DNA from: Alphaproteobacteria bacterium
GTDB taxonomy: Bacteria > Pseudomonadota > Alphaproteobacteria > CAAHEQ01 > UBA3637
DNA length: 64,000 nucleotides
Assembly: GCA_045605805.1 (NCBI GenBank)
Contig: JAZUQR010000008.1
Coordinates: 1-64,000, forward strand
Reading direction: 5' to 3'
Translations under genes and position numbers: made by a program
In this document: positions 48,455-62,666 of the stretch, piece after piece
Layout: every line of letters starts with the position of its first letter
How positions within the stretch are numbered: position 1 is the first letter of the stretch
Notes under the pieces: generated by a model
Told to the model about the DNA's origin: nothing
Seen by the model: the letters and a program-made list of their open reading frames with translations, nothing else
Databases searched by the model: none

Positions 48455-48566
48455 TTTTTGCCTTTTATATGAACCGGTGTATGCCGATTATGAGCATGAT
48501 ACCCCGGAAACGGTCCGTCAAATTGATAGAAACAATGTGATTTACGATGATTTATGTACAAATTAA
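48372..48566 (+). CDS. o-spanin-like lipoprotein (Rz1-like), overlapping the previous gene
   Basis: Lipobox LSGC, overlapping frame. Confidence 0.55.
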   Translation: MLKQLRIVGTAWLILSALSGCTTNINGDFCLLYEPVYADYEHDTPETVRQIDRNNVIYDDLCTN

Positions 48567-48663
48567 AAGATTTTGTTTGACTTTTCTTGCAAAAATGGCT
48601 CGAATCATAAGCGGAGGTGTCATGAACCTCTGTAATCTTAATATTAAGAAAGGAAAATTAAAC

Positions 48664-48936
48664 ATGAATAAAACTGAATTTGTTGAAGCAGTTGCTAAAG
48701 AAGCTAAAGCCTCTAAAGCCGCCGCAAATGAATTGGTAAACGCTGTTGTAGCTGTTGTTACAAAAGCATTGAAAAAAGGTGAATCAGTTCAAATCACTGG
48801 TTTCGGTACATTTGAAGTAGCAAAACGCGCCGCTCGTAAAGGTCGCAATCCTGCTACCGGTAAAGAAATCAAAATCCCGGCATCAAAAGCTCCTAAGTTC
48901 AAAGCCGGCGCAGTCTTGAAAAAAGCTGTAAAATAA
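48664..48936 (+). CDS. hup: DNA-binding protein HU (prophage-borne copy)
   Basis: MNKTEFVEAVA...GFGTF...RKGRNPATG...PKFKAG. Confidence 0.95.
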   Translation: MNKTEFVEAVAKEAKASKAAANELVNAVVAVVTKALKKGESVQITGFGTFEVAKRAARKGRNPATGKEIKIPASKAPKFKAGAVLKKAVK

Positions 48937-48955
48937 GCCAAATTTGTCTTAATAT

Positions 48956-48986
48956 ACCTCACAGGTTCTATCCCGTGAGGTTTTTT
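48956..48986 (+). terminator. intrinsic terminator
   Basis: ACCTCACAGG...CCCGTGAGGT-TTTTT. Confidence 0.7.
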
Positions 48987-48987
48987 G

Positions 48988-49016
48988 TTGCATTTTAATC
49001 TGCCATGGGTTATAAT
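48988..49016 (+). promoter_or_regulatory. sigma70-like promoter
   Basis: TTGCAT-17 nt-TATAAT. Confidence 0.65.
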
Positions 49017-49022
49017 GACCGA

Positions 49023-49262
49023 GCTTGGTTAGTTATGCCCAATCAGGCTAGGATTCGATAAATCCGATTATCAGTATGGGCAGAAGGTATTTCTGTCGGC
49101 ATCCGCCATGGATACGCCGAAAGATTGTGTTAGTTCATGGGTGGATGCCTGCCGAATAAGGTATCCACCCCAATAAGGCAGGACTATTTCTCATACTGAT
49201 AATAGTTTATCGACATCCACCCGCCTCATCACAGGTGGGTAAATTGTTGATATGGGGCGTAT
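49023..49262 (+). ncRNA. putative structured RNA / leader of unknown family
   Basis: Nested stems: TCGATAAA/TTTATCGA, ATTATCAGTATG/CATACTGATAAT, GGGTGGATGCCT/AGGTATCCACCC, ACCCGCCT/AGGTGGGT. Confidence 0.55.
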
Positions 49263-49274
49263 GAAGGGTGGATC

Positions 49275-49715
49275 ATGGGCAAGATATGCTCGTTTTTTGG
49301 ACACAGTCATTTATATGGACAATCGGACCGTATTGCCCAACAATTAAGGCAAGTCATTATCAATTTAATCGGACAAGGTGTTGATACCTTTTACGTTGGC
49401 AATCATGGTGAGTTTGATATTTTTGCCAGCCGGGTAGCCTATGATCTGAAAAGTTTATATCCTAACATCCAAATCATTGTTGTTTTATGTTATCCAAATG
49501 AGTTGCAATACTTAAAATGTGCCTTCACGGATTTTTTGATGCCTCCGGAAATAGAAGCGGCCCCCAAACGGGCTTGCATTGTAACTCGCAATCATTGGGT
49601 TGCTGATAATTCTGACTACATCGTCTGCTTTATCAAATACAAAATGGGTGGAGCCTATGCGGCTATCGAATACGCCCAAAAGCACCATAAACAGATTATA
49701 GAGGTGAGAGCATGA
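49275..49715 (+). CDS. SLOG-superfamily (YspA/DUF1273-like) protein
   Basis: CSFFGHS, FYVGNHGEFD, RNHWVADNSD, GGAYAAIEYA. Confidence 0.8.
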   Translation: MGKICSFFGHSHLYGQSDRIAQQLRQVIINLIGQGVDTFYVGNHGEFDIFASRVAYDLKSLYPNIQIIVVLCYPNELQYLKCAFTDFLMPPEIEAAPKRACIVTRNHWVADNSDYIVCFIKYKMGGAYAAIEYAQKHHKQIIEVRA

Positions 49716-49814: not shown

Positions 49815-50408
49815 ATGCGTAAAGATCAAGTCAGTCGTAATCAAAGAATTCATATGCCCAGGAAGGTAGAAAACGTTTCGGGGCAATTAATGCTACCTGT
49901 GGATGTTGCTTCTGTAAAGCAAGCATTTGCAACAGCTAATGACAAACGATTTAAATATGCTGATGCGCTGGATCAAGCAACCAAAGAAGATCCGGAATTG
50001 CATCAAATTTCAACAATTCCAAGCGATTCAAGCGAATTAATTGTTATAACGAAACTTAAAAAACTGGGGGCTTATATTCTAGCCGTGACGGTTAAATCGC
50101 CGGCCAAATTTAGACCTGTTTTTATCAATCGGATGCAAAATTACAGCTTGTCGGCTTTGGAAAATTTATTGAATGCTAATTTTATTCGGATGGATAGCCC
50201 CGAACATAAAGCCCAGCGAGAAAAGCATCAAACGGATGCACTCATTCAGTTAAAAATGGTGGCATATGTTGCAATGCTGTCGGAAAATGCAAAGTGTATT
50301 TTGATGAGGCAGTATAAACAAATATCAATTCAGGTTGGTGAAATTATTAACCTGATTATGGCATGGAAAAAAAGTGATGATAAACAATGGCAAACAAAAA
50401 AGTTTTGA
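49815..50408 (+). CDS. avd: DGR accessory variability determinant (four-helix bundle)
   Basis: SPAKFR...NRMQ...LENLLNAN...R...Q..A...L...QY..IS....EI...I.AW; lies immediately 5' of TR and RT; start uncertain. Confidence 0.82.
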   Translation: MRKDQVSRNQRIHMPRKVENVSGQLMLPVDVASVKQAFATANDKRFKYADALDQATKEDPELHQISTIPSDSSELIVITKLKKLGAYILAVTVKSPAKFRPVFINRMQNYSLSALENLLNANFIRMDSPEHKAQREKHQTDALIQLKMVAYVAMLSENAKCILMRQYKQISIQVGEIINLIMAWKKSDDKQWQTKKF

Positions 50409-50447: not shown

Positions 50448-50566
50448 TTGTGCCTCTTGGTCCGCGTCTTCAAATGAAAATGAAAACGTGCGTTGCGTCA
50501 ACTATAAGGGCGATAAGAACTGGAATAACACGAATAAACGTAAAATCTCGGCGCGCCCCGATTTGC
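50448..50566 (+). repeat. DGR template repeat (TR)
   Basis: 119 bp ungapped match to 52074-52192; all 23 mismatches are at A in this copy; rich in AAY codons. Confidence 0.97.
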
Positions 50567-50821
50567 TTTTAAGGAGAACAACAAAATGTGGTCGGCAAAG
50601 ACACAGATCTCTGAAACAAGCCAGATATGTGGATTTTAGAAAAAATCCGCCCGTGCTTAAAGCAAAGGAAACTTTCTCTTTTCTAACCGCTGTCAGCTTA
50701 ATGCTCAGTGCGGTGGAAGAAGTAAAAATGCAAAGTTTGCGTTTTATGGGGTATCACATATATTGACACGTCTTGTTTTAATATATTATCGGGTACCCCT
50801 TTTTTACAACAAAAGAGAACG

Positions 50822-51871
50822 ATGAAGATAGAAGAGATATTTACATTTGAAAACTTGGTTGCGGCCCACAAAGCATGTCGGCTGAGTAAGCAACATAAAC
50901 GAGGAACAATCATGTTTGAAATTGAATTGGGGCGTAATGTCACCAATCTGGTCAAACAATTGACGGCTAGAACATATCGTTTAAGTCCTTACAGATCCTT
51001 TACCATTTATGATCCGAAGAAAAGATTAATTGAAGCGTTACCCTACAAAGACAGAGTGGTTTTAATGTGCTTTTGTCAGCATTCGGTAGCTCCCCGGCTA
51101 GAGAGACACCTGATTTATGACAATGCCGCTTCACGCAAAGAAAAAGGAACGCATTTTGCGGTAGAGAGATTGCATTCATTTATGCGAAAGCTGTACATCA
51201 AAAACAAAACAAATCGGATTTATTTTTTGAAATGCGATATCAGGAAATATTTTCAAAGCATCAATCATGAGATTTTATTGGAACTGTTGGCCAAGACCGG
51301 TTTTTCGGCTGATGAGATGTGGTTTTTAAGGATGATCATTGAATCACACGGTTCCATCGGGTTGCCTTTGGGTAATCAGACCAGCCAATGGTTTGCCTTG
51401 CTTTATTTGAACGGAATGGACAGGCTGATTAAAGAACGTCTGCGTATGTCCTGTTATGTGCGCTATATGGATGATTTTGTTATCCTAAGCGAAGATAAAG
51501 CCAAATTACAGCTGTGTAGAAAGCAAATTGATGAATATGTCAAAGGATTAAAGCTGTCCTTAAATCAAAAGACACAAATCGGGCTGTTATCGGATGGTAT
51601 TGATTTTTTGGGATTTAACCACAAATTATCGGCCACAGGTAAGATTATCAAATCTTTGCGTGGATCGGCCAAAAGCCGCCAAAGAAAATACCTGAAAACC
51701 ATCCGTCATTACTATTTGAATGATGTCCTGGATGATGAGTACCTAGACGTCCGTTTAGCCTCGTTTCGCGGGCATTTAAAGGGGACTAAGAACTGGATCC
51801 ATATCAGCAACCGCTTGGCTTCCTTAAAACACGAGAAACGCCGTACAAAAAAAATTGTTGCAGAACAATAA
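50822..51871 (+). CDS. DGR reverse transcriptase
   Basis: KCDIRKYF, GLPLGNQTSQ, YVRYMDDF, GIDFLG; no maturase or endonuclease domain. Confidence 0.96.
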   Translation: MKIEEIFTFENLVAAHKACRLSKQHKRGTIMFEIELGRNVTNLVKQLTARTYRLSPYRSFTIYDPKKRLIEALPYKDRVVLMCFCQHSVAPRLERHLIYDNAASRKEKGTHFAVERLHSFMRKLYIKNKTNRIYFLKCDIRKYFQSINHEILLELLAKTGFSADEMWFLRMIIESHGSIGLPLGNQTSQWFALLYLNGMDRLIKERLRMSCYVRYMDDFVILSEDKAKLQLCRKQIDEYVKGLKLSLNQKTQIGLLSDGIDFLGFNHKLSATGKIIKSLRGSAKSRQRKYLKTIRHYYLNDVLDDEYLDVRLASFRGHLKGTKNWIHISNRLASLKHEKRRTKKIVAEQ

Positions 51872-51886
51872 ATTGTATGATATACT
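51858..51886 (+). promoter_or_regulatory. sigma70-like promoter for the DGR target operon
   Basis: TTGCAG-17 nt-TATACT with TG extension, overlapping the RT stop. Confidence 0.55.
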
Positions 51887-51915
51887 GGGAGTATAAGCTA
51901 AATTAGGAGGCTCAT

Positions 51916-53865
51916 ATGGACTTTACGTTTTTGAAGGAAGATCAGATATGGGGCGATGGTGCCCTAGATGTAATGAAGCGTTATGGCACGAAGGTTGCGC
52001 CAACGGATCTGACAGTCATATTGGGTGGTTATATGACTGGTGGAGGTGATCGTACTTCTGAAGATGATCTAACTTGTGCCTCTTGGTCCGCGTCTTCAGA
52101 TGGACATGGAGGCGTGCGTTGCGTCCGCTGTGAGGGCGATGAGCACTGGGGTGGCACGCATGGACGTGTGATCTCGGCGCGCCCCGCTTTGCCTCCATCG
52201 GAGGCATCTAAAATCAGCCCGAGCGAAGCGAGAGCTATCGCTGGAATCCGCGTAGCGGAATATGGGGAATACCCGCAAACGGTCGCCGATGAACGCACCA
52301 GCGAGAAATTAGAAAGATTACATGATTCAAGATCTCTCCGTCCGACCGGAAAAAATTACACATTTGATTCAGTTGGTTTAACCGATTATGACACGTCTTT
52401 TAAGGCCACATCCTATCAGGAATATGAAATGGATGGCAAAAGGTATATCCGCGTTCCTGGACGGCCTGCTGACGACGATAGCAAACTATCTACTGGGGAA
52501 CAGGTAGAGTCCGGAAAACCCTACTGGGTTGAGGTCCAACCGATAGAATGGCTGATGGATAGAAGCGGCACAATGGTCGCCAAAAAATGCTTATTCGCCG
52601 GTATTCAATTTGATACAAAGAGCTCATATGACGGTGACTTCTCTAAAACGTCCATGAAACACTATTTGGACACTTATTTTGCCAAAGAAATGGAGCCAAC
52701 CGGACGTGTGGCCGCAAGAACGGTATCAAGAGACTATGAAGAAGAGCCGGAAAGAAAAGAACCCGTTAAAAAGAAAGAACCGACAGCCAGACAGAAGAAA
52801 TACGGGATCGAGGTATCTGATGAGCCTATGCCCGTCAAGGACCAAATAAACTTCTATATTCAAAACGGAATGAGCTTCATGCTCCATGGCCCGTCCGGTG
52901 TCGGTAAATCACAACGTGTGAAAGAAATTGATCCGGATTTGACCTCAATTACGCTGTGTAACGGAATTTTGCCTGAAGATGTTATCGGTAAAACAATCTA
53001 TCCAAACGGCGTGGGAGCCGATGGGGCCTCCGGTGGTGTTTGGGTGCCGCCTAAGTGGTACACGGATTTGTGCAGAAAATGCGAAACAGAACCGGACAAA
53101 CAGCACGTCTTATTTATCGATGAAGTGACCAATGCGCGTGAAACAACACAAAGTTTGATCTATCACGTAGCGTTGGAAAAATCAATTGCCCAGGGCGTTG
53201 GCAAACTGCCTAATAATGCTGTGGTCGTATTGGCCGGTAACAGCAAGGAAGAATCAGGAGCCGCTTATAACATGCCGGCCCCGTTGTTCAGACGTTTAAG
53301 CCATATTTACTTGGACTTGAATATTCAGGATTGGTTGGAATGGGGCTCGGAACACAGCAAGAGCCATCCGGAAGATCCGGATCGCTTAAACATCCATCCA
53401 TTAGTCGCCAGTTTTGTGGCAACCTACGGACGGCAAGTGTTCTATTCCGAGTATGATGAAGAAAACCCCGGCAAGTTTGCACTTGACCCACGAAAATGGG
53501 AAAAAGTATCAGATAAAATCTACGCTAATAAGGGTATGATGCGCCGTGAGATTTTGGAAGCTGATATCGGGCCTGAGTTGGCGGCCAGTTTGTTGTCTTA
53601 TGCTAAAAATCCGCCGCTATCCCTGGAAGAAGTGATTGAGGGCGAATATACCCGCGAGGATATTCCTACGGGACAGGATGCCCGTTTGGCGTTGGCGTTG
53701 AGTTTGCGTCATGCAACACCGAAACAAGTCGGGAAAGTACGTCAATTTGTTGAAACACAGTTAGGCGCAGAAAATCGTGCGATTTTTGACTCTGTTTGGG
53801 TGGGCAAGGATGATACACGCGCCATGCAGATTGCCACTTTACATAACTTAAAGGGAGGAAGATAA
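51916..53865 (+). CDS. DGR target: N-terminal CLec/DUF6273-like variable domain fused to a MoxR-type AAA+ ATPase
   Basis: VR at codons 54-92; Walker A GPSGVGKS, Walker B VLFIDE, LAGN, PLFRR, PRKWE. Confidence 0.9.
   Translation: MDFTFLKEDQIWGDGALDVMKRYGTKVAPTDLTVILGGYMTGGGDRTSEDDLTCASWSASSDGHGGVRCVRCEGDEHWGGTHGRVISARPALPPSEASKISPSEARAIAGIRVAEYGEYPQTVADERTSEKLERLHDSRSLRPTGKNYTFDSVGLTDYDTSFKATSYQEYEMDGKRYIRVPGRPADDDSKLSTGEQVESGKPYWVEVQPIEWLMDRSGTMVAKKCLFAGIQFDTKSSYDGDFSKTSMKHYLDTYFAKEMEPTGRVAARTVSRDYEEEPERKEPVKKKEPTARQKKYGIEVSDEPMPVKDQINFYIQNGMSFMLHGPSGVGKSQRVKEIDPDLTSITLCNGILPEDVIGKTIYPNGVGADGASGGVWVPPKWYTDLCRKCETEPDKQHVLFIDEVTNARETTQSLIYHVALEKSIAQGVGKLPNNAVVVLAGNSKEESGAAYNMPAPLFRRLSHIYLDLNIQDWLEWGSEHSKSHPEDPDRLNIHPLVASFVATYGRQVFYSEYDEENPGKFALDPRKWEKVSDKIYANKGMMRREILEADIGPELAASLLSYAKNPPLSLEEVIEGEYTREDIPTGQDARLALALSLRHATPKQVGKVRQFVETQLGAENRAIFDSVWVGKDDTRAMQIATLHNLKGGR
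52074..52192 (+). repeat. DGR variable repeat (VR)
   Basis: TR copy with 17 A>G, 5 A>C and 1 A>T changes and no other differences. Confidence 0.97.
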
Positions 53866-53866
53866 A

Positions 53867-54331
53867 ATGTCATTAAAAGAAATACTCGAAAAAAGTCGGA
53901 AAAAACGCAAGAATGGCTTAGTCATTGGGCCTGATATAGGATGGCTTGGTCCGAAACCCGCCCGAACAAAAGCCGAAAAGATTAATCAAATCAAAACGGA
54001 ATTTATTGATGATAGAGCTTTGTTGATTGTCGGAGCTAAAGCATCCGATTTTGCAGAATATCCGAAGATAGAGGCTGATATCTCAGTTCAACGTTTGATT
54101 CAATATATGGATACGTTTGAAAAAACGGAAGATCATAAAGGTTTCTTGGTCATTGATGGGTTAGACAATATACCTGAATCTGAACAGGAAAAGTTTGTCC
54201 CCTTGTTAAAAGATCGGCAGATTTTATCCAGTAAGCTGCCAAATGAAGTTCAAATTTTGGTTCCTGTGAAAAAAATTGAAGACATTTCAAAAAGGATAAA
54301 ATCTCTGATATTTCCTCTGAAGGTGGTATAA
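53867..54331 (+). CDS. degenerate AAA-like protein (Walker B-like region, no Walker A)
   Basis: KGFLVIDGLDNIPESEQEKFVPLLKDR resembles a Walker B and following helix. Confidence 0.5.
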   Translation: MSLKEILEKSRKKRKNGLVIGPDIGWLGPKPARTKAEKINQIKTEFIDDRALLIVGAKASDFAEYPKIEADISVQRLIQYMDTFEKTEDHKGFLVIDGLDNIPESEQEKFVPLLKDRQILSSKLPNEVQILVPVKKIEDISKRIKSLIFPLKVV

Positions 54332-56178
54332 TGATCAAAGATGTTTTAAAACAACAAGAAGAAATTCAATATATCAAGGAACAGGTTTTAGCCAAGTTTC
54401 CCTTACTTGGTGTGACGATGATGCCTTTGTCGGTTGTTCCTGATGATAGAATTGGGACAGCGGCCACGGATGGACATAAAATTATCTATTCTCCAAAGTT
54501 TTTTAACACCTTATCGGACGAACAAAAACAATTTGTCTTTGCGCATGAAGTGATGCATGTCGCTTTTAACCATATTTTGCGCAGTAAGGGTCGTAATCAA
54601 AGATTGTGGAATATCGCAACCGATTCTGTTATCAACCAAATCTTGAAAAATGAAAAATTGCCATTAGCGGAAGGTGGCGTTGATATTGCAGAAGCTGTCA
54701 ATCATTCGGCCGAGGAAATGTACGAAAAACTTTTGAAAAAGAAAGAACAGCGCGATCAGGAAAAACAGCAAAATCAAGAGCAAGATCAACAGCAACAACA
54801 ATCACAATCCGGTGGGACGGACCAGCCTCAGGATCAGGATGCACAAAATCAGCCTGAACAGGAACAACCTCAGGATCAAGACGGACAAAATCAATCCGGA
54901 CAAGACCAGCCTCAGGATCAAGACGGGCAAAAGGGACAAGAACAATCCGATCAACAATCAGACGGTTCAGAAAATCAAGATGAACAAAACAAAAATTCAT
55001 CAGAAGGCTCGGAAGGATCCGAACAACAGAAAGATCAATCTCAAGATGGTGATTCAAACTCTGAACAAAACAGTTCTTCCGGTCAGGGAGACGAAAATCA
55101 ATCTGATTCAAATTCCGAACAATCAAGCGACAATCAACAAGGATCCTCTAAACCTCAAAAAGGTGGTCAACGTTCGCAATCCGGTTCTTCCTCTCAATCA
55201 GAAGACACCGACTGGGATGACAGCAATATCGATTGGGACAATGAAGATGAACAAGTAGGCCACGATACACATGATATTTGGAAAGAAGCAGTTGAGCAAG
55301 CAGAACGTGAAGAACAACGAAAACAGGAAGCATCCAAAAAGAAAAGTTTATGGGATAAACTAAAAGAGAACATGGGGCAAAAAGAAGTTAAAGAGGATCA
55401 GCAAGGCGAACCTCAAGAAAAAGAAGCTCCTGTACCGCAAGATGAAAACATGGATGCGTATGAAAAAGGCTTCTTGGCAGAAAATCAAGAAAAACGTCAT
55501 GAGATGGCCGAACAGGTGCGCGAACAATTAAACAGGATAAAAGGAAGCCTCCGTCAATCAAATGATCATACCACAGTCGGGGATGTTGGGGAAACTCAAA
55601 CGCCGGTGGTTGATTGGAAAAAAATGCTTAAAAAATCTTTTGATGAAGAGCGTGATCGTTGGTCCTATCGTCGTTCCGGTTCTGAAAACGACTATATGGC
55701 TCGGGTAGAAGAATTGGAAGATGAAGGCCGTCCGGATACTGAGGTTATGTTGGATGTCAGCGGTTCTGTAAATATCCGCTTGTTACGTGAATTTTTAAGA
55801 CAACTTAAACCGTTACTTAAATCCTCTAAATTAAAGGTCGGTTGCTTTGATGAGTTTGTTTATGATTTTAAAGAAATAAAGACAAAAGAAGATATTGATC
55901 ATTTTCAAATTACGGCAACATCTCAATGGACTGAAAACTGGGATGCGGCTGTCCGGGCATTTTCTAAGAAAAAAGAAGTGAATAAAATTATTTTTACAGA
56001 CGGATATCCATGCCCAGGAACAATGCCTAAAGAAGATTTAAAGGGTAAGAATGTTATTTGGATAGTTTATGGAAATAAAGATTTTAATCCATGCTGTGGT
56101 AAAGTCATCCAGGTTTCTGAACGACAACTTCAGTCGTATATTCAGACGGCCGCTCCACTTTCTAGAGGTGGAAGATAA
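54331..56178 (+). CDS. DUF2201-type HExxH metallopeptidase-like + vWA domain protein (MoxR partner)
   Basis: TAATDG...AHEVMH...RLWNIATD..IN; Q/D/S-rich linker; MIDAS DVSGS and FTDG. Confidence 0.88.
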   Translation: MIKDVLKQQEEIQYIKEQVLAKFPLLGVTMMPLSVVPDDRIGTAATDGHKIIYSPKFFNTLSDEQKQFVFAHEVMHVAFNHILRSKGRNQRLWNIATDSVINQILKNEKLPLAEGGVDIAEAVNHSAEEMYEKLLKKKEQRDQEKQQNQEQDQQQQQSQSGGTDQPQDQDAQNQPEQEQPQDQDGQNQSGQDQPQDQDGQKGQEQSDQQSDGSENQDEQNKNSSEGSEGSEQQKDQSQDGDSNSEQNSSSGQGDENQSDSNSEQSSDNQQGSSKPQKGGQRSQSGSSSQSEDTDWDDSNIDWDNEDEQVGHDTHDIWKEAVEQAEREEQRKQEASKKKSLWDKLKENMGQKEVKEDQQGEPQEKEAPVPQDENMDAYEKGFLAENQEKRHEMAEQVREQLNRIKGSLRQSNDHTTVGDVGETQTPVVDWKKMLKKSFDEERDRWSYRRSGSENDYMARVEELEDEGRPDTEVMLDVSGSVNIRLLREFLRQLKPLLKSSKLKVGCFDEFVYDFKEIKTKEDIDHFQITATSQWTENWDAAVRAFSKKKEVNKIIFTDGYPCPGTMPKEDLKGKNVIWIVYGNKDFNPCCGKVIQVSERQLQSYIQTAAPLSRGGR

Positions 56179-56220: not shown

Positions 56221-58803
56221 TTAATATAAATTAGCCTCAAAAATTTGATAAAGGTCAAATTCTATACCGTCAACGCCTCTGATGAGGTCTATTTCATCTT
56301 CGGCGGCGACATCAATTCGGGCCTGATCTAAAAACAAGCCTTCTTCTTTTCGTTTAAGCTCTTTTTCAGCGACATTCAGCTGTTTTTGAATTCTTAATTC
56401 CGTGAGCCGGTCTGAAGCGGAGGATATTGTCTCACGAATTTTTTTAACCTCTTGCCTTGCTTCTGAAATGTTTTGCTCTAGGACAGATTTTTGGCGGCTG
56501 GCTTTTATTTTAATTAAATCAACATCCGTATCAAACTTTTTGGTATAATCATTTACATAACGTTCCTTAAGGTCGCGCTGGATGCGTGTATCTAACAAAT
56601 CTCGCGATGAACCGCCAGTCGTTTTTAGCCAATACGGATTCCTCTTTTCTTCAGCTATAAATTCACTAACCGGTTGATTGATAATTTTTTGGCATTCCTC
56701 ATCAGTCATGAGCCGTCCATCAGGTGTCGTACCAACCAAAATGTCATACTCTGATAAATACTGCCGGCGGCGATTACGTAAGACGATGTTATAGAACTTT
56801 ATATTGCATTTTTCTGTTGGCTCAACGGTTTTAATGTCCGCTTTGTCAGAGCATGATATTTCTTGTAAAATACCACGAACAAGCACGGATGTTAAAGTGA
56901 TGCGCCCTGCGACCGGCTTAAAATCTTTACTCATTCCATAAGTCCTGCGACCGGTGTATGGCACATTTCTTGTGCCGGTGTAATAGTAAAACATGTGCGG
57001 CAATTCTTCATCGTCCGGTAAAGTCAGCGTTTGATTGAAGTCATCGATCACATATTCCGGATGCTTTGTCGCAAAATAAAACTTCACAACTTCCCATAAA
57101 TCTTTATTCAAGAACTCCGCTTGTTCCTCTATGTATTTCGGCGAAACGGACACTTTCTCGGCAATATCTTTGGTAAAAGTGGTAAAGAGAGAACTTTCAG
57201 CCGCTGAAACAATGCGCTCATTCGGTTCGCGGTTTACTTCCAAGTTTGTTTCCATATCTGCGCGTATATCACTAAGCGTGCGGCGTTTTTGCAAAACATC
57301 TTCCAGTTTAACATCAAAATTACCGACAATATCGTCCGACATACCAAAAATGCCTTCAAATTGCAGGGTACGCTTGTTTATCAGCTCCAAAATACGGACA
57401 TCCGAGATATTTTCTTTGCTTAAAAGATTGATAACTAAAACATCGGATTGCTGGCCTTGTCGGTGGCAACGACAGATACGCTGTTCCATTTCCACGGCGT
57501 TATAAAGTAAATCATAGTTAACCACAACTGGACAATATTCAATATCCAAGCCTTTGGCCATAGCATCACTACAAATTAAAATTTGCAAATCTTTTTCTGC
57601 CCGAAAACGTGGCAGAGCATCATTTTCTGTATGCTTGATGACATTATATCCGGCGGTTTTAAGCAAATTTGCCAAAACTGGCACGGTGGCAAGATTATCC
57701 ACGAACACAATCGCTTTTTGTGTTTCTTTACGCAATTTTAAGTGTGCAAATGTCGTTTTAATAGCTTTTAGAAATTCTTCCATTTTGGCGGTTTGCGTAA
57801 TTTTTGCCGCCATATCGCGCATTGATTCCAAAATAACACGTTCATCGCCTTGTGTTCGCTCAATAGGTGCTTCCAACATTGTGGCAAATGCTTGTGGTGA
57901 TGAGGCCAAAATGTGGTAAAACATCAAAGTCAGTTGATAATTATCCATTTGCGGATAAGCCTGCTTTTCAGCTAAATTTAAGTATTTTTCGGTTAAATCA
58001 TAAATTTTCTTTTCATCATCTTTTGGTACGTAGTTCAAAACAATCGGTAAGCGACGTGTAAAGTTTACATACTGGCTCGCTTGGCTTTTAAGGGTACGAA
58101 AAGCGAATTGTGATACCCAATTTGATAGTTCTGGATAGTTTTCGGGCTTTCTGAAATACCGGCGATAAAAACTGTCAGGATCCGGCAGAACGCTTTCATC
58201 AATAAAATGTATCAATCCGTAAATATCCATGATACTCATTGTGATCGGCGTTGGCGTTAAAAGCAGTTTGAAAGCATCGCCGACAGCACCCTTAATGGTT
58301 GCAACTGATTTATTGTCCGGCTTAAAAAGAAAATCAGCCTCATCAAACACGGCCAAATCCCAACGAATGCTTTTGACTTTTTCTGCCTCACGGATAACAT
58401 CATCGTATGTGACAAGGCAAATACCTTTACTATCGGCAGTATATTCGGCCCATTTGATAACCGGCAAGGTGAACTCTTCATCAAGTTTTTGTTGCCATTG
58501 TGCCATAAGGTTTTGGGGTAAAACAACCAATATATGTTCTTTTCCCTCGTACCAACGTTGAACTACTACAAGCAAAGCCTCATAAGTTTTACCGAGTGAG
58601 CCTTCATCACATAAAATGCAACCTTTAATCAACCTAGATCGCAGGGCAAAACGGGCCGCGGCTATTTGATAAGGTAATACTTTAATTTTTGAAGAAGCAT
58701 AAACCGCCAGTAAATTATCGTCATCGCGAAAACTGGCCAATCGTCTGGCTTCCACCATAGCGGCAAATTCGGATACAAAACGATACGGCTTAGTCTCTTC
58801 CAT
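56221..58803 (-). CDS. SNF2-family helicase-like protein, RM-associated
   Basis: PYQ, DEGSLGKT, FDEAD, EQRICRCHRQGQ; C-terminal coiled coil. Confidence 0.85.
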   Translation of the reverse strand: MEETKPYRFVSEFAAMVEARRLASFRDDDNLLAVYASSKIKVLPYQIAAARFALRSRLIKGCILCDEGSLGKTYEALLVVVQRWYEGKEHILVVLPQNLMAQWQQKLDEEFTLPVIKWAEYTADSKGICLVTYDDVIREAEKVKSIRWDLAVFDEADFLFKPDNKSVATIKGAVGDAFKLLLTPTPITMSIMDIYGLIHFIDESVLPDPDSFYRRYFRKPENYPELSNWVSQFAFRTLKSQASQYVNFTRRLPIVLNYVPKDDEKKIYDLTEKYLNLAEKQAYPQMDNYQLTLMFYHILASSPQAFATMLEAPIERTQGDERVILESMRDMAAKITQTAKMEEFLKAIKTTFAHLKLRKETQKAIVFVDNLATVPVLANLLKTAGYNVIKHTENDALPRFRAEKDLQILICSDAMAKGLDIEYCPVVVNYDLLYNAVEMEQRICRCHRQGQQSDVLVINLLSKENISDVRILELINKRTLQFEGIFGMSDDIVGNFDVKLEDVLQKRRTLSDIRADMETNLEVNREPNERIVSAAESSLFTTFTKDIAEKVSVSPKYIEEQAEFLNKDLWEVVKFYFATKHPEYVIDDFNQTLTLPDDEELPHMFYYYTGTRNVPYTGRRTYGMSKDFKPVAGRITLTSVLVRGILQEISCSDKADIKTVEPTEKCNIKFYNIVLRNRRRQYLSEYDILVGTTPDGRLMTDEECQKIINQPVSEFIAEEKRNPYWLKTTGGSSRDLLDTRIQRDLKERYVNDYTKKFDTDVDLIKIKASRQKSVLEQNISEARQEVKKIRETISSASDRLTELRIQKQLNVAEKELKRKEEGLFLDQARIDVAAEDEIDLIRGVDGIEFDLYQIFEANLY

Positions 58804-58806
58804 AAT

Positions 58807-61800
58807 TTACACCGTTTTCTTAAATTCCTGCCAATTTCTGACCGGCTGTTCGGAGTAGATAACATTATCAAGAGCTTTGAAGTGCTGTGCGCCGCAATGA
58901 ATCTTTTGTTGTTCTTCCGGTCGCAGGCCATAGAACGAATCAGTTCCTTTGGTTTCAAGCACGAAATAAAGTTTCTGTTCGCCATTTTTCTCTAAATATA
59001 CGGCCCAGTCCGGATTATAGGTTCCAATAGGTGTATCAATCTTAAACCGGCTTGGAATTTTAAAGAACATTTTAACGTCAGGATCCTCATCCAAAGCCAC
59101 GGCAAACGGCTTTTCAACCGTGCTACTGTCATAAATAACATAGTCATAAACGCTGTTTTTAACCGCGACAGCATTACGATCGAGGTTAGCAATCAATTCT
59201 TCACTCGAGAAAATCTCTTGCACGGCATATTCTTCGCCGGCCAATTTAATATACTTAATTCCATCAATGGCCAATGCATGGCGATTGCGCTGGATGATCT
59301 CCAAAACCTTTTCGTAAAAGTCTTGTGGGTTCTTCAAAAAGTCTCCGGCCCGGCTGCTTTCTTGAATGATTTTATTCACGGTCGAACGTTTCAGCAATGT
59401 TTTGGTAGAGATTAAACGCAAAATATCCGGCAGAACATCATAGCTCTTTTCCAGGTTTTGGGTAAACATCGCACCGGCTTGGGCGGTTACGCCTGACTTT
59501 TGAATATCAACCGAGGCTGTCTGACTGAGTAAACGGGCCGAAGCAATCTCCGGCATCTTACGAATATCCTTGATACTGTCGGCGATCAGTTTATCTAAAT
59601 CAAACTGGACCCGATAAGTGGTCTTTTGCTTAATTTTATTCCACAACTCCATAAATTCCGGTGATAATAGCGCACGTTTATTGAGTTTTACCGTTACATC
59701 CTTGGAAGCATCGCGGATGTTGAGCTTATTATCAGCCTTGTTCATGGACTGCAAAATTGCACGTTGCGCGGCTTTTGACCAACGCTCACTTAAATTGAGT
59801 GTACCGGCCGCAAGCTGTGCCTTCATGGTGTCTTTAATCTTGTTCTTGCTGTCAATAACCTTTTTATCTTTCAGCTCATCCATAATCGCGGCCGCTTCCT
59901 CATACGAGAAGGTCTTTTTCTCAACAACAGTTTCTTTATATGTTGTATTAGCAAGCGCGGCAACCGACACCGGCTTTGAAGTTTTGATCATATCTTGAAC
60001 ATGTGTTTTTACAGGTTCAGGCATGGGGATATTTTCGATTTTAATTTCTTCCGGCTTAACTTCCGGTTTAATGTAGCCACCATCATCAATTAAGCCATAT
60101 TTTTGTAAATCTTCAACAATAGCGGTGGCCTCGCTTTCGCTGACTCTACGTTCAACTTCTACTTCTTCATCGTAAGAATAGCCGACAAGCATATCCAACT
60201 CGAAAACGCCAAATTTAACACCGGTTTCATCTTCAATTTCTTTCTGTAATTTATCGGCAAACTCGGCAAAACTTTCGTTGGCGATAACGTGCAAAACATT
60301 GATGTTCTTATCCTCAATCCGTTCTCCGTCCTGATTAACGCAAAGTCTTAAGCCACGACCGATTTTTTGACGGCAGGTAAACAGCGATTTTTGCTCGATC
60401 AGCGTGCAAACTTGGAAGACATTCGGATTATCCCAACCTTCTTTTAAGGCAGAGTGCGAGAAAATAAAGCGGAGCGGACATTCAAACGACAACAGCCACT
60501 CTTTATCTTTCATGATGGTATTGTAGGTGTCGTCATCAGCCTGCGTATCGCCTTTGGTATCCTTATATTTACCTTTTTTATCTTGGGAGAAGTAACCGTT
60601 GTGTGCTTTGTTTACGTCTGTATCGAACTTGGTTTTTAGCTCAGCGTAACGTGGTTTATTGATCAGTTCGTTATAGCATTCTTCGAACATTTTGGCATAA
60701 ATACCTTTGCCGCCATCCTCAGTGCGGTATTTTTTAACCTCATCAATAAAGAACAGGGACAACACCTTAATTCCCATATCAAAATAGCGTAATTCCTTAT
60801 CTAAATGGGTTTTAATGGTCTGATAAATTTGCGCACGTTTCAAAACTTTTTCATCAACGCTACCGATGGCTTTACCCAGGGCAACATATTCCGAGTTTGC
60901 AAATTCCACACCCTCAAGGCCTGATGTACAATCAATCCCTGAAACAACATAGCCTTCATAAATTTTGCGATGGCCGGATTTGATAAACAGATCATCGTCC
61001 GGTTTAACCGTTATAACTTTACGCGTAATATGAGCGTTGTCGTCTTCCACATCAATTTCCAGTTTGGCCGAAAAGCCGTTGGCGTTTGAAACGTTCTTTA
61101 AGGCGATATAGGGTTTGTTTGAATCATTGATAACTGAATTTGAAATAACGCAAATCTGTTTTACTAATCCCAGTTGATACGCATCAACTGGTGTTAAACG
61201 ATAGACAAGATTCTGCTTTTCGCGGTGGGTAGCGGAATAACGCAACACGCACAGCGGATTAAGCATCGCGATGGCTTCCTTTGCCTTTGGCGTATTATCA
61301 ACACTTTGCGGTTCGTCAATAATCACAACCGGATTTGTGTCCTGAATATAGCGCATAGCGGTTTCGCCGTTCAGTTTATCTTGCTCTTGATTGATAATGT
61401 TTTCGGCCTTTTTGAAAGCATCGATGTTGATGATCATGATTTCAATGTTGCTGGAAGTTGCAAAGGCTCGCACATCAGAGAGCTTGGCCGAATTATAAAT
61501 AAAGTAGCGGTACGGCACACCGTCATATTGATTTTTGAAATACTCTTCCGTAACCTGAAACGACTTGTTTACACCTTCGCGAATTGCTACACTCGGTACA
61601 ACAATGATGAACTTTGTAAAACCGTAGCGGTGGTTAAGCTCCAAAATTGTTTTTGTATAAACGAAAGTTTTGCCGGTTCCGGTTTCCATTTCAATTGAAA
61701 GCGGCACCGCCTTTATGCCGTCAATGTTGGTTTGCGGCAGAGAATGAGCCTTTTGGATTGCATGAAGATTGTTGTTTATTGTCTCTTCATCCAACAGCAA

Positions 61801-61965
61801 CTTGTTACCGAACCCAAATTCATTTTGCAGGAAAGAAGCCTGCGCGGAGTTATCGGCGATTGAAAAAGTCATGTTGGCTTTTTCTTGGCCCTTGAATAAC
61901 TCAACCGCCGCATTCGTGGCATCAGTTTGAAATTCTTGATTCTTAAACTTTAGTTTCATGCTCAT
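58807..61965 (-). CDS. res: type III restriction endonuclease subunit
   Basis: EMETGTGKT, IIDEPQ, SHSALKEGWDNPNVFQ, YNPDW...ETKG. Confidence 0.95.
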   Translation of the reverse strand: MSMKLKFKNQEFQTDATNAAVELFKGQEKANMTFSIADNSAQASFLQNEFGFGNKLLLDEETINNNLHAIQKAHSLPQTNIDGIKAVPLSIEMETGTGKTFVYTKTILELNHRYGFTKFIIVVPSVAIREGVNKSFQVTEEYFKNQYDGVPYRYFIYNSAKLSDVRAFATSSNIEIMIINIDAFKKAENIINQEQDKLNGETAMRYIQDTNPVVIIDEPQSVDNTPKAKEAIAMLNPLCVLRYSATHREKQNLVYRLTPVDAYQLGLVKQICVISNSVINDSNKPYIALKNVSNANGFSAKLEIDVEDDNAHITRKVITVKPDDDLFIKSGHRKIYEGYVVSGIDCTSGLEGVEFANSEYVALGKAIGSVDEKVLKRAQIYQTIKTHLDKELRYFDMGIKVLSLFFIDEVKKYRTEDGGKGIYAKMFEECYNELINKPRYAELKTKFDTDVNKAHNGYFSQDKKGKYKDTKGDTQADDDTYNTIMKDKEWLLSFECPLRFIFSHSALKEGWDNPNVFQVCTLIEQKSLFTCRQKIGRGLRLCVNQDGERIEDKNINVLHVIANESFAEFADKLQKEIEDETGVKFGVFELDMLVGYSYDEEVEVERRVSESEATAIVEDLQKYGLIDDGGYIKPEVKPEEIKIENIPMPEPVKTHVQDMIKTSKPVSVAALANTTYKETVVEKKTFSYEEAAAIMDELKDKKVIDSKNKIKDTMKAQLAAGTLNLSERWSKAAQRAILQSMNKADNKLNIRDASKDVTVKLNKRALLSPEFMELWNKIKQKTTYRVQFDLDKLIADSIKDIRKMPEIASARLLSQTASVDIQKSGVTAQAGAMFTQNLEKSYDVLPDILRLISTKTLLKRSTVNKIIQESSRAGDFLKNPQDFYEKVLEIIQRNRHALAIDGIKYIKLAGEEYAVQEIFSSEELIANLDRNAVAVKNSVYDYVIYDSSTVEKPFAVALDEDPDVKMFFKIPSRFKIDTPIGTYNPDWAVYLEKNGEQKLYFVLETKGTDSFYGLRPEEQQKIHCGAQHFKALDNVIYSEQPVRNWQEFKKTV

Positions 61966-62657
61966 TTACCTATTTTATAAATTACATATTTAATTTCAGG
62001 ATTCGAAAACTGCTCCTTAAAGAAAGATTCCATTTTCTTGTCATTATTCACAACTTCTTTAGGCAATTGATTAAAATTTAATATTGTTTTATCCATCATG
62101 CCTACATCATTTATCAGAATACGATGACGCTTGTCTTCGTTCTTATTCCAGTAGAGGATCGCATACCTTATGGAGCCGGAAATAACCTCATTATCAAACG
62201 TAACGCTGTGCGTTGTAATGGTTTCCAACTTTTTCTTTTTTTTGATTTTACCAGTAAACGGGATAAAAATCGTCTTTTCGGGAGTTTGAACTCTAAAATA
62301 TATGTCTTTATGCATAGGGATTTCAGGCTCATAGGAGTATCTTTTCCCCATAATGTTATATGCATGAAAAGGTTCCAACAAAAATGGCTCATCAAAAGTT
62401 TTTAGTGTCATTAGGTATTTATTGTTGAATACGACAGAGATGGCCGTAATCGTTTTCGGAGAGAGCGTTTTATTGAATATCGTGCAATGTAAACCACTCC
62501 CTTCAAAAGAATTATGATTTTCTCCGAAAGATGTGATTTTAAGATTTTTTGAAAAGTGGTAAAGCCAAAAGCCATAAGCAGTTAAAACAAATATCCCCAA
62601 ATTACCAAGGATGGATGCTACTTTCTCAACAGTTTCCAAATTCAAAAAATCACACAT
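61962..62657 (-). CDS. hypothetical membrane-anchored protein between mod and res
   Basis: N-terminal TM segment; AT-rich; ATGA-coupled to res. Confidence 0.65.
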   Translation of the reverse strand: MCDFLNLETVEKVASILGNLGIFVLTAYGFWLYHFSKNLKITSFGENHNSFEGSGLHCTIFNKTLSPKTITAISVVFNNKYLMTLKTFDEPFLLEPFHAYNIMGKRYSYEPEIPMHKDIYFRVQTPEKTIFIPFTGKIKKKKKLETITTHSVTFDNEVISGSIRYAILYWNKNEDKRHRILINDVGMMDKTILNFNQLPKEVVNNDKKMESFFKEQFSNPEIKYVIYKIGK

Positions 62658-62666
62658 CGTCCACCT

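What the first reader, a model, noticed from the sequence alone, without database searches (positions are those of the whole stretch)
50448..52192. TR/VR pair with strictly adenine-specific divergence and strong A>G bias
Manual alignment gives 119 bp with no gaps and 36 adenines in the TR. Of these, 23 are substituted in the VR (17 to G, 5 to C, 1 to T), and no non-A position differs. Sixteen codons change, e.g. NENEN>DGHGG and NYKGDKNWNNTNKRK>RCEGDEHWGGTHGRV. The absence of non-A drift, together with intact RT and Avd genes, suggests recent or ongoing mutagenic retrohoming.
Basis: seen in the sequence. Interest (0 to 1): 0.8.

Follow-up and report, generated by a model that had tools for sequence, protein, structure and literature searches.

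The report
Prophage DGR rewriting an ATPase's N-terminus
This is a genuine, recently active diversity-generating retroelement on a prophage of an uncultured gut alphaproteobacterium; the mechanism is textbook, but it rewrites a small lectin-like domain at the front of a motor ATPase instead of the tail end of a phage fibre.

Summary
TR 50448-50566 and VR 52074-52192 align over 119 nt without gaps. The TR has 36 A, and there are 23 mismatches, all at TR adenines (17 G, 5 C, 1 T), changing 16 codons.

The reading as a DGR is supported. avd, TR and an RT with LGNQTSQ and YMDD motifs lie upstream. In near-identical phages the TR is unchanged but the VR differs about tenfold more than its flanks.

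Two corrections:
- The last "substitution" (50561 A, VR C) is a fixed TR/VR marker. It occurs in 11 of 11 pairs across the clade and is not mutagenesis.
- The A>G excess is a general DGR-RT habit.

What is unusual is the target. The VR codes residues 53-93 of a 649-aa protein. It lies in an N-terminal C-type-lectin-like domain fused to a MoxR-like AAA+ ATPase, and a metallopeptidase-vWA gene follows. This cassette is conserved in Alphaproteobacteria and Bacillota MAGs.

The genome holds two more cognate VRs at contig ends.

The scan has met this design before on other DNA. Target function is inferred only.

The parts
49815..50408 (+). avd-like accessory gene (197 aa; the Avd-like part is residues 72-190, after an N-terminal extension of about 70 residues)
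   Evidence: phrog_3206 'Avd protein of DGR' 6.7e-11. Pfam bAvd 26.3 bits, below the cut-off of 40. NCBIfam DivGenRetAVD 23.4 bits, below the cut-off of 80. Conserved upstream of the RT in relatives.
50448..50566 (+). Template repeat (TR), 119 nt with 36 A. All 35 A at repeat indices 24-97 (50472-50545) are mutable.
   Evidence: Identical in L009 and L010, 1 nt different in L011 and L012. Each of the 35 A sites is changed in at least 1 of 6 VRs.
50546..50566 (+). Invariant 3' end of the TR (IMH*-like): TCTCGGCGCGCCCCG-A-TTTGC, with the marker A at 50561
   Evidence: TR has A and VR has C at this place in 11 of 11 TR/VR pairs of the clade and in the 2 extra VRs of this genome.
50567..50821 (+). 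Spacer between TR and RT (255 nt); presumed 3' part of the DGR RNA
   Evidence: Position only. 0 differences of 255 to L009. No RNA analysis was done.
50822..51871 (+). DGR reverse transcriptase (349 aa)
   Evidence: RVT_1 9.6e-20, 71.6 bits. phrog_1423 2.5e-93. LGNQTSQ at 183 and YMDD at 215. The only RT of this kind in the genome.
51916..53865 (+). Target gene T1 (649 aa): N-terminal lectin-like VR domain (residues 1-95), middle beta-rich domain (about 103-263), linker, and MoxR-like AAA+ ATPase (about 307-601)
   Evidence: Single open frame. phrog_1297 ATPase 1.8e-37 on residues 307-601. Walker A GPSGVGKS at 325, Walker B VLFIDE at 398. AlphaFold2 of residues 1-275: pLDDT 93.7, pTM 0.91.
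52074..52192 (+). Variable repeat VR1 (residues 53-93 of T1). Mutable part 52098-52171. IMH-like invariant end 52172-52192 with marker C at 52187.
   Evidence: Residue entropy among 120 homologues peaks at residues 61-66, 70-73 and 76-85.
52190..52206 (+). Possible hairpin at the VR 3' edge, inside the coding sequence: TGCCTCC-ATC-GGAGGCA (7-bp stem)
   Evidence: Predicted in the DNA fold, but the 66-nt stretch folds no better than shuffles (z -0.37). Present after the VR in the window and in L009, L011 and L012. Absent after the TR and absent in the 7 Bacillota-type loci. Unproven.
53867..54331 (+). Small gene (154 aa) between the ATPase and the peptidase-vWA gene; no family assigned
   Evidence: Only weak sub-threshold hits: NPHP3_N 0.003 and PADLOC Avs1b 5.5e-4. 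69-72% identical copies in L009, L010 and L012.
54331..56178 (+). Metallopeptidase + vWA-like protein (615 aa) with an acidic, Q-rich low-complexity middle
   Evidence: DUF2201_N 2.6e-29 and DUF2201 5.3e-07, both above cut-off. phrog_1314 1e-49. HEVMH at 72 and MIDAS-like DVSGS at 475. Follows the ATPase in 12 related loci.

Best explanation
A prophage (about 16.4-56.2 kb of the window) of an uncultured gut alphaproteobacterium carries a complete diversity-generating retroelement.

Inferred from the family's known mechanism: TR RNA is reverse-transcribed by the RT with Avd. Bases opposite template adenines are misincorporated, mostly C, which gives A>G. The cDNA then replaces the VR, guided by the invariant GC-rich 3' end. 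That end carries one fixed TR/VR marker (A in the TR, C in the VR).

Shown here: the adenine-only pattern, the intact genes, the unchanged TR with differing VRs in sister phages, and three cognate VRs in this genome.

The VR is not at a C-terminus. It codes residues 53-93 of an N-terminal C-type-lectin-like domain. In T1 this domain is fused through a beta-rich middle domain to a MoxR-like AAA+ ATPase. A small gene and a metallopeptidase-vWA gene follow.

Inferred, at roughly even odds: the variable domain is a cytoplasmic recognition head. It brings changing ligands or substrates to an ATPase/vWA-peptidase machine. Whether that serves defence, counter-defence or virion assembly is open. The short paralogues would be free-standing binders built on the same scaffold.
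For: DGR identity:
- The repeat and its A-only differences, with chance 1.1e-15.
- RT and Avd matches and RT motifs.
- Only one RT, one avd and one TR in the genome.

Recent action:
- TR identical or 1 nt different in L009-L012, while the VRs differ, almost only at TR adenines: L009 15 of 18, L011 24 of 24, L012 19 of 20.
- Differences to L009 are 26% in the mutable VR, against 0-2.4% in the TR, RT, the rest of the module and the ATPase.
- Extra VRs: C7:99-217 (14 of 14 at A) and C1:8-126 (17 of 18 at A), each with its own flanks.
- In the contigs of 4 runs from 4 studies, the shown VR differences of X8 all lie at TR-adenine positions. Contigs of X2 and X11 end inside or just before the VR.

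Fixed marker: A in the TR and C in the VR in 11 of 11 pairs.

Target:
- One 649-aa frame; ATPase motifs; phrog_1297.
- tblastn to phage genes that depositors call MoxR ATPase: 29.5% identity, 4e-17.
- Confident models: pLDDT 93.7 and 84.8.
- With the N-domain alone, nearly all of the 50 best VIA-align rows are C-type-lectin-like domains, though Z is 5.0 or less.
- hhalign puts residues 22-96 on the C-terminal VR part of DUF6273 DGR targets (E 8.5e-5, probability 60%).

Linkage: avd-TR-RT-[module-ATPase] occurs in 15 of 21 loci whose RT is at least 50% identical. DUF2201 lies downstream in 12 of them. The loci come from Alphaproteobacteria and from Bacilli/Clostridia-type MAGs.

Cytoplasmic location: none of the 120 best homologues has a hydrophobic N-terminus by a crude count.
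Against: - No raw reads were available, so diversification inside one population is not shown. Contig breaks at the VR can have other causes.
- In X8 the contig that carries a different VR is 11 times deeper than the RT contig and has another upstream sequence. It is probably a paralogue, not the same locus.
- Some relatives' VRs carry non-A changes: 3 in L009 and 1 in L012. The VR of L010 has non-A changes and its target's N-terminal module is matched in two overlapping pieces, pointing to a frame break near the VR. So decay also occurs.
- The lectin-fold assignment rests on low Z scores. Foldseek found nothing at E <= 0.001, and Pfam finds no family on residues 1-305.
- The ATPase is below every Pfam AAA cut-off.
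- Nothing tested here shows what the target binds, or that it works with the peptidase-vWA protein. PADLOC has no model for either.
- Whether the extra VRs at contig ends are two loci or three, or partly assembly products, is unresolved.
Confidence: 0.85

Rival explanations
1. A relic: the DGR acted in the past but is now silent. The TR/VR differences are frozen history, kept by selection on the target.
For: No within-population data were available. The L010 VR has non-A changes and its target module is matched in two overlapping pieces, pointing to a frame break. L009 has 3 non-A differences in its VR. G018, of the same genus, keeps VR-like sequences (20 of 22 and 22 of 29 differences at A) with no TR or RT found in a MAG about 91% complete.
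Against: VR1 and the C7 VR have no non-A difference at all. Yet the C7 paralogue is 8% diverged from T1 over 722 nt overall. Phages with RT proteins 100% identical carry different VRs. RT, avd and target are all open, with catalytic motifs.
Confidence: 0.1
2. The target is a virion or assembly protein. On this view the MoxR/peptidase-vWA pair is a phage assembly chaperone, as proposed for jumbo phages and for an archaeal virus. The variable head would either be displayed on the particle or would adapt the chaperone to structural proteins.
For: Phage MoxR plus metallopeptidase-vWA pairs were proposed to act in virion assembly (PMC7824862, passages read). The ATPase part matches phage genes in 406 records. 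The RT's nearest outgroups (L026, L028) have DUF6273 targets, a domain seen in prophage DGR targets thought to be structural.
Against: T1 lies after the tail and lysis genes, at the accessory end of the prophage next to HU and SLOG genes. Module-only paralogues lie in chromosomal contexts, next to tRNA-Ser and cell-wall genes or LRR and autotransporter genes. A hypervariable head on an assembly chaperone has no obvious use.
Confidence: 0.2
3. A member of the DGR-linked vWA-MoxR (VMAP) ternary conflict systems described in multicellular bacteria, carried here by a phage as an anti-phage sensor.
For: DGR-diversified lectin-fold domains attached to vWA or next to MoxR ATPases are described (PMC7159879 and PMC10907252, passages read). 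Three genes occur here (ATPase, small gene, vWA protein), and a Type III R-M system and a DrmD-like helicase lie next door.
Against: No VMAP-type protein or effector domain (trypsin, caspase, TIR) was found: Pfam and PADLOC give nothing on the small gene beyond weak hits. Here the variable domain is on the ATPase, not on the vWA protein, and at the N-terminus. The vWA partner carries a zincin peptidase, as in the phage pairs.
Confidence: 0.15

Closest known systems
Bordetella phage BPP-1 DGR (avd-TR-brt acting on mtd), the prototype
   Same: A phage-borne avd-TR-RT order, adenine-only TR-to-VR differences, a GC-rich invariant 3' end with TR/VR marker differences, and a lectin-like variable domain.
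   Different: The target lies downstream of the RT. The VR is near the N-terminus, so the IMH-like element lies inside coding sequence. The target is an ATPase fusion outside the tail module. The TR uses GAA, AAG and AAA codons as well as AAY, and 4 codons can mutate to stops.
CPR/Patescibacteria DGR targets: AAA ATPase fused to a C-terminal lectin-fold VR (Paul et al. 2017 as summarised in PMC10907252; UVR4 'Midasin/AAA-ATPase' targets in Wu et al. 2018, PMC5758913)
   Same: A DGR-diversified binding domain on a MoxR/midasin-like ATPase (passages and the supplementary table read).
   Different: There the VR is C-terminal; here it is N-terminal, on a prophage of gut Alphaproteobacteria, with relatives in Bacillota-type MAGs. 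Paul et al. 2017 itself was not read.
DUF6273 DGR targets of gut prophages (e.g. Faecalibacterium prophages, PMC11792537)
   Same: Residues 22-96 align to the C-terminal VR part of DUF6273 targets from L026, L028, L037 and L069 (hhalign E 8.5e-5). DUF6273 clusters are among the nearest in the ESM Atlas (score 0.90). The nearest outgroup RTs (42-45% identity) have DUF6273 targets.
   Different: Pfam's DUF6273 model matches none of the 65 family members scanned. The domain order is reversed: the variable part comes first and the 'GEYPQ...YLDTYF' part after it. A circular permutation is possible but was not tested.
Phage MoxR AAA+ / metallopeptidase-vWA pairs (Iyer et al. 2021, PMC7824862) and DGR-linked vWA-MoxR ternary systems (Kaur et al. 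2020, PMC7159879; Dore et al. 2024, PMC10907252)
   Same: An ATPase next to a zincin-vWA protein, and a known association of DGRs with MoxR/vWA systems.
   Different: In the phage pairs no DGR or variable head is described. In the ternary systems the variable lectin domain sits C-terminally on the vWA or STAND protein, and a VMAP/effector protein is present. None was found here.

Membership tests
Diversity-generating retroelement (DGR) | TR/VR near-repeat whose differences fall at TR adenines | tested here: met
   23 of 23 differences at TR adenines over 119 nt; chance 1.1e-15. The same holds for 2 more VRs in the genome.
Diversity-generating retroelement (DGR) | Reverse transcriptase of the DGR type next to the TR | tested here: met
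   RVT_1 above cut-off. phrog_1423 2.5e-93. LGNQTSQ and YMDD present (that [ILV]GxxxSQ marks DGR RTs is recalled, not from a call). 115 relatives were found, of which 80 were kept. Among those checked, many have A-biased repeat pairs.
Diversity-generating retroelement (DGR) | Accessory protein Avd | tested here: inconclusive
   PHROG Avd 6.7e-11, but Pfam bAvd 26.3 against cut-off 40 and NCBIfam 23.4 against cut-off 80. Position and conservation fit.
Diversity-generating retroelement (DGR) | Invariant GC-rich 3' element with TR/VR-specific differences (IMH/IMH*) | tested here: met
   The 21-nt invariant end contains GGCGCGCCCCG. There is one fixed difference, A in the TR and C in the VR, in 11 of 11 pairs. 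Its function in homing was not tested.
Diversity-generating retroelement (DGR) | VR diversity among close relatives with a conserved TR | tested here: met
   TR differences 0-1 of 119 against VR differences 19-27 of 74 in four relatives.
Diversity-generating retroelement (DGR) | Mutagenic retrohoming observed directly | not testable with these tools
   Only Logan contigs could be laid, not raw reads.
C-type-lectin-fold variable proteins (CLec; DUF1566/Fib_succ_major/DUF6273 type) | VR lies in a C-type-lectin-like fold | tested here: inconclusive
   With the N-domain model, the VIA-align list is dominated by C-type-lectin-like domains, but Z is only 2.7-5.0: intimin 4.1, TC14 4.0, Lcl C-terminal domain 3.2, Mtd 2.9. 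Foldseek found nothing. Weak Fib_succ_major hits occur in two tandem homologues, 1.2e-5 and 1.4e-3, below cut-off. hhalign to DUF6273 targets gives E 8.5e-5.
Pfam DUF6273 (PF19789) | Match to the family model above its gathering score | tested here: not met
   No hit in the window protein at E <= 10, and none in the 65 members of A1 at E <= 0.1. A profile-profile match covers the VR part only.
MoxR-class AAA+ ATPase | AAA+ core with Walker A and B and a match to MoxR-type models (AAA_3/AAA_5) | tested here: inconclusive
   Walker A and B are present. AAA_3 19.7 and AAA_5 18.5 bits are below their cut-offs. phrog_1297 'ATPase' 1.8e-37. Best phage matches are annotated MoxR ATPase by depositors, 29.5% identity.
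vWA-MoxR (VMAP) ternary conflict system | A VMAP protein with an effector domain beside MoxR and vWA | tested here: not met
   Neither the small gene nor the neighbours match any VMAP, trypsin, caspase or TIR model in Pfam or PADLOC.

The most novel reading that the evidence does not exclude
The cassette is a phage-borne, self-reprogramming AAA+ machine. A DGR keeps rewriting the substrate-recognition head of a MoxR-type ATPase that works with a zincin-vWA partner, so the phage can retarget remodelling or proteolysis to fast-evolving host or rival-phage proteins. The same phage TR also rewrites module-only paralogues in the host chromosome in trans, giving phage and host a shared repertoire of intracellular binders.
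Probability: 0.2. Interest if true: 0.8.

Novelty: new variant of a known kind. Interest (0 to 1): 0.45.

Why it matters
DGR surveys state that VRs sit at C-termini because only there can the cis elements for homing lie outside coding sequence (PMC8144416, passages read). Wu et al. found only 3 of 372 DGRs diversified at an N-terminus (PMC5758913).

Here a whole clade, in two phyla of gut bacteria, keeps the VR near the N-terminus with the IMH-like element inside the reading frame. The variable head sits on an ATPase paired with a peptidase-vWA protein. If the head selects substrates, this would be a natural, continuously re-aimed intracellular recognition device. That bears on phage-host conflict and on engineered DGR mutagenesis.

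As a TR/VR pair alone, the finding is ordinary.

Tried and rejected
- megablast of the 4.6-kb cassette against deposited phages found no match.
- phmmer of T1 against PDB sequences found nothing below E 0.07.
- Foldseek of the 275-residue module against PDB and BFVD, and of the 102-residue domain against PDB, found no match at E <= 0.001. VIA-align of the whole module gave a best Z of 4.5, on the middle domain only, so that domain has no assigned fold.
- Pfam found no family on residues 1-305. NCBIfam and PADLOC found nothing for T1 or the peptidase-vWA protein.
- Hairpin after the VR: the stem is predicted, but the stretch folds no better than shuffles, and the stem is missing in the 7 Bacillota-type loci. 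It is listed only as a possibility.
- A>G bias as a special property of VR1 was rejected (p = 0.053 against sister VRs, and the published RT bias).
- Read laying: parts of the VR without contig cover in X2 and X11 prove nothing by themselves. The 'goes back' joint in X2 is a VR variant closer to the TR than to VR1, not a rearrangement. Table 3 of that call shows 40 rows and leaves out 100 more, so 'no TR difference' holds only for the rows shown.
- I considered that the C1 and C7 contig ends are one gene. I rejected this as it stands, because the 98 nt before the VR in C7 are identical to the window copy, while the C1 copy differs at several positions in the same stretch. Gene conversion or population mixture could still reconcile them.
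- Four relatives (G001-G004) hold one TR and one VR each, so multi-target use is not general.
- Searches for earlier descriptions (passages) found no N-terminal VR on a MoxR ATPase in gut bacteria. The supplementary table of Wu et al. was only searched by words, and its three N-terminal cases were not identified. bioRxiv supplements and Paul et al. 2017 were not seen.


Full report
**1. The observation**

The repeat finder returns one 119-nt ungapped direct repeat, 50448-50566 and 52074-52192, 81% identical. A base-by-base count gives 36 A in the upstream copy. If 23 differences were placed at random on 119 positions, the chance that all hit the 36 A is 1.1e-15.

**2. The cassette** (all on the + strand)

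| Feature | Coordinates | Evidence |
|---|---|---|
| avd-like gene | 49815-50408 | PHROG 'Avd protein of DGR' 6.7e-11; Pfam and NCBIfam Avd models below cut-off |
| TR | 50448-50566 | |
| spacer (255 nt) | 50567-50821 | position only |
| reverse transcriptase | 50822-51871 | RVT_1 71.6 bits; phrog_1423 2.5e-93; LGNQTSQ and YMDD |
| target T1 (649 aa, holds the VR) | 51916-53865 | |

The genome (1.21 Mb, 31 contigs) has only this one RT, avd and TR.

The setting is a prophage. It has a serine recombinase, terminase, portal, major head protein, tape measure, a gpJ-like tail protein and an endolysin-like gene. HU and SLOG-like genes come next, then the DGR. Beyond 56.2 kb, on the other strand, lie a DrmD-like helicase and a Type III restriction-modification system.

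**3. Has it acted recently?**

A scan of one genome per species with the RT protein gave 115 relatives.

- Four are close, all Alphaproteobacteria MAGs from animal guts: L009 and L010 (RT protein 100% identical) and L011 and L012 (95%).
- Their TR is identical (L009, L010) or differs by 1 nt (L011, L012).
- Their VRs all differ from each other and from the window.
- Excluding the marker described in section 4, differences to the cognate TR fall at adenines in 15 of 18 (L009), 24 of 24 (L011) and 19 of 20 (L012).

Window against L009, mismatches per segment:

| Segment | Mismatches |
|---|---|
| TR | 0/119 |
| spacer | 0/255 |
| RT | 5/1050 |
| mutable VR | 19/74 |
| rest of the module | 13/539 |
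| ATPase | 21/1155 |

Every one of the 35 mutable adenines is changed in at least one of six VRs.

Decay also occurs. The VR of L010 has non-A changes, and its target's N-terminal module is matched in two overlapping pieces, which points to a frame break near the VR.

Direct evidence from one population could not be had, because all 24 runs found are kept as contigs. I laid four runs from four studies.

- No difference in the TR is among the rows shown (40 shown, 100 not shown).
- The X8 differences shown in the VR lie at positions that are A in the TR.
- X2 and X11 contigs stop in or before the VR, and X2 depth falls from about 21 to 1.7 there.
- The X8 contig is 11 times deeper than the RT contig and has a different upstream sequence, so it is probably a paralogue.

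This is suggestive only.

**4.

(a) The last difference (TR 50561 A, VR 52187 C) lies 3' of the GC-rich block. It is A in the TR and C in the VR in all 11 TR/VR pairs compared, including seven from Bacillota-type MAGs whose RT is only about 55% identical. It is also C in both extra VRs of this genome. So it is a fixed IMH*/IMH-type marker. The mutagenised count is 22 of 35 adenines.

(b) The A>G excess is not peculiar.

- VR1 has 17 G, 4 C and 1 T. The other five VRs pooled have 47 G, 26 T and 16 C (Fisher p = 0.053).
- In a reconstituted Bordetella DGR in E. coli, the RT misincorporated C (59.3%), then G (26.4%), then A (14.3%) opposite template adenines. The bias towards C was stronger outside AAC contexts, favouring Gly and Asp (PMC12875486, passages read).
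- C in the cDNA reads as A>G on the sense strand.
- The TR here has 19 variable codons: AAT, AAC, GAA, AAG, AAA, TAT and others. In theory they allow about 1.1e18 proteins. Four of them (AAG twice, AAA twice) can become stops.

**5. More than one target**

The TR also matches C7:99-217 (87%) and C1:8-126 (84%, minus strand), both at contig ends.

- Their differences to the TR are 15 (all at A) and 19 (18 at A, one T>G), marker included.
- The C7 copy:
  - It is 92% identical to the window over 722 nt and then diverges.
  - It ends as a protein of about 337 aa without an ATPase.
  - A tRNA-Ser gene and cell-wall genes follow it.
- The C1 copy has its own start and upstream region, next to LRR and autotransporter genes. 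The contig end cuts it 7 nt after the VR.
- The 98 nt before the VR in C7 equal the window copy and not the C1 copy. So I count them as separate loci, but assembly effects or gene conversion cannot be excluded.
- Four close relatives have one VR each.
- Another species of the genus (G018):
  - It has three module-only paralogues.
  - Two of them carry VR-like stretches that differ from this TR mostly at adenines (20 of 22 and 22 of 29).
  - No TR or RT was found in that roughly 91% complete MAG.

**6. The target**

The VR codes residues 53-93.

- A search with residues 1-300 found 490 proteins at E <= 1e-3. Of the 120 best, 55 carry the Walker A motif (median 652 aa) and 65 do not (median 388 aa). 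Some end in ankyrin repeats, and a few have two modules in tandem.
- Residue entropy among the 120 peaks at residues 61-66, 70-73 and 76-85, the TR-adenine codons.
- AlphaFold2 gives a confident model of residues 1-263 (pLDDT 93.7, pTM 0.91).
- Foldseek finds nothing for the module.
- With the N-domain alone (pLDDT 84.8), Foldseek again finds nothing. VIA-align lists almost only C-type-lectin-like domains, at low Z: 5.0 to 2.7, with intimin 4.1, TC14 4.0, Legionella Lcl C-terminal domain 3.2 and Mtd 2.9.
- hhalign places residues 22-96 on the C-terminal variable part of DUF6273 targets taken from more distant DGR loci (E 8.5e-5, probability 60%).
- The ESM Atlas lists DUF6273 clusters at score 0.90.
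- Pfam's own DUF6273 model matches none of the 65 members.

So the variable domain is most likely a small lectin-like domain related to the DUF6273 type, placed first instead of last. The middle domain (about 103-263) has no assigned fold.

Residues 307-601 are an AAA+ ATPase with intact Walker motifs.

- They match phrog_1297 at 1.8e-37.
- All Pfam AAA models are below cut-off.
- In 406 deposited phage records tblastn matched the protein, and none covers 80% of it. All 25 listed rows match only the ATPase part, and some depositors call that gene MoxR ATPase.

Next come a 154-aa gene without a family, and then a zincin-peptidase plus vWA-like protein. The latter matches DUF2201_N and DUF2201 above cut-off and carries HEVMH and DVSGS.

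**7. Conservation of the cassette**

- Of 21 loci whose RT is at least 50% identical, 15 show the module-ATPase gene right after the RT. Of those, 12 also show the DUF2201 gene.
- Of the remaining six, five stop at or near the RT, and one (L017) has about 1.5 kb downstream without the module.
- The 15 come from Alphaproteobacteria MAGs and from Bacilli/Clostridia-type MAGs.
- In an uncurated automatic call on more distant loci, 30 of 36 candidate target frames had the VR in the last quarter, the usual place.

**8. Comparison with what is known**

- The mechanism is the textbook DGR.
- VRs at C-termini are the rule, and the rule is explained by the need for non-coding cis elements (PMC8144416). 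Wu et al. found N-terminal diversification in 3 of 372 DGRs (PMC5758913).
- AAA-ATPase targets with C-terminal VRs are the commonest architecture in CPR bacteria (as stated in PMC10907252; UVR4 rows in Wu's table).
- DGRs tied to vWA-MoxR ternary systems are described in multicellular bacteria.
- Phage MoxR plus metallopeptidase-vWA pairs are described without a DGR.
- DUF6273 targets are described in gut prophages.
- The combination here was not found in the papers searched. That combination is:
  - an N-terminal VR, with the homing element inside the frame;
  - on a MoxR-like ATPase;
  - with a zincin-vWA partner;
  - on prophages of gut bacteria.
- This scan has reported the same design on other DNA (e1-3747136, e1-1147533, e1-3786611). 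My reading was formed before I saw these notes, and it agrees with them.

**9. Verdict**

- The TR/VR observation is correct, and the DGR interpretation is supported. Recent activity is well supported by comparison of strains, but ongoing activity is not shown.
- As a DGR it is ordinary. The N-terminal, ATPase-borne target and the multi-locus use of one TR make it a new variant of a known kind.
- The function of the target (a cytoplasmic recognition head for an ATPase/vWA-peptidase machine) is an inference from architecture and synteny. It has about even odds against a structural or assembly role or a classical conflict-system role.

Noticed in passing
window 56221-63998 (- strand): A DrmD-like SNF2 helicase (PADLOC DrmD 1.3e-76), a Type III restriction endonuclease (9.8e-297), an unassigned 231-aa gene and a Type III methyltransferase (1.3e-111) lie directly beyond the prophage's DGR end. 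This looks like a defence island abutting the prophage.
   Followed up: partly
window 48547-49715: An HU-type DNA-binding protein and a YpsA/SLOG-like gene sit just upstream of avd. They are kept in the same order in L009-L012. Whether they belong to the DGR is unknown.
   Followed up: partly
window 54750-55000: The peptidase-vWA gene contains imperfect 42-nt tandem repeats that code a long acidic, Q-rich low-complexity stretch between the peptidase and vWA parts.
   Followed up: no
L010:7117-7913: In a relative whose RT protein is 100% identical, the VR carries non-A changes and a register shift, and the target's N-terminal module is matched in two overlapping pieces. This points to a frame break near the VR or an assembly error in a heterogeneous VR.
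   Followed up: partly
G000 C7:1008-1285 (L097): After the short target paralogue comes a stretch of about 210 nt that recurs several times in this genome (three places on contig C27) and in other genomes of the genus. A tRNA-Ser(tga) gene follows it. It may be a repeat element or an integration hot spot.
   Followed up: no
L111, L112, L113 (G018): Another species of the genus has three module-only paralogues, two of them with VR-like stretches. No TR or RT was detected in that genome, so the targets may outlive the phage-borne DGR or be served from unassembled DNA.
   Followed up: partly
window 21860-23083: A ParB-like nuclease domain fused to a DNA methyltransferase lies in the early region of the prophage (phrog_498 6.9e-159).
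   Followed up: no
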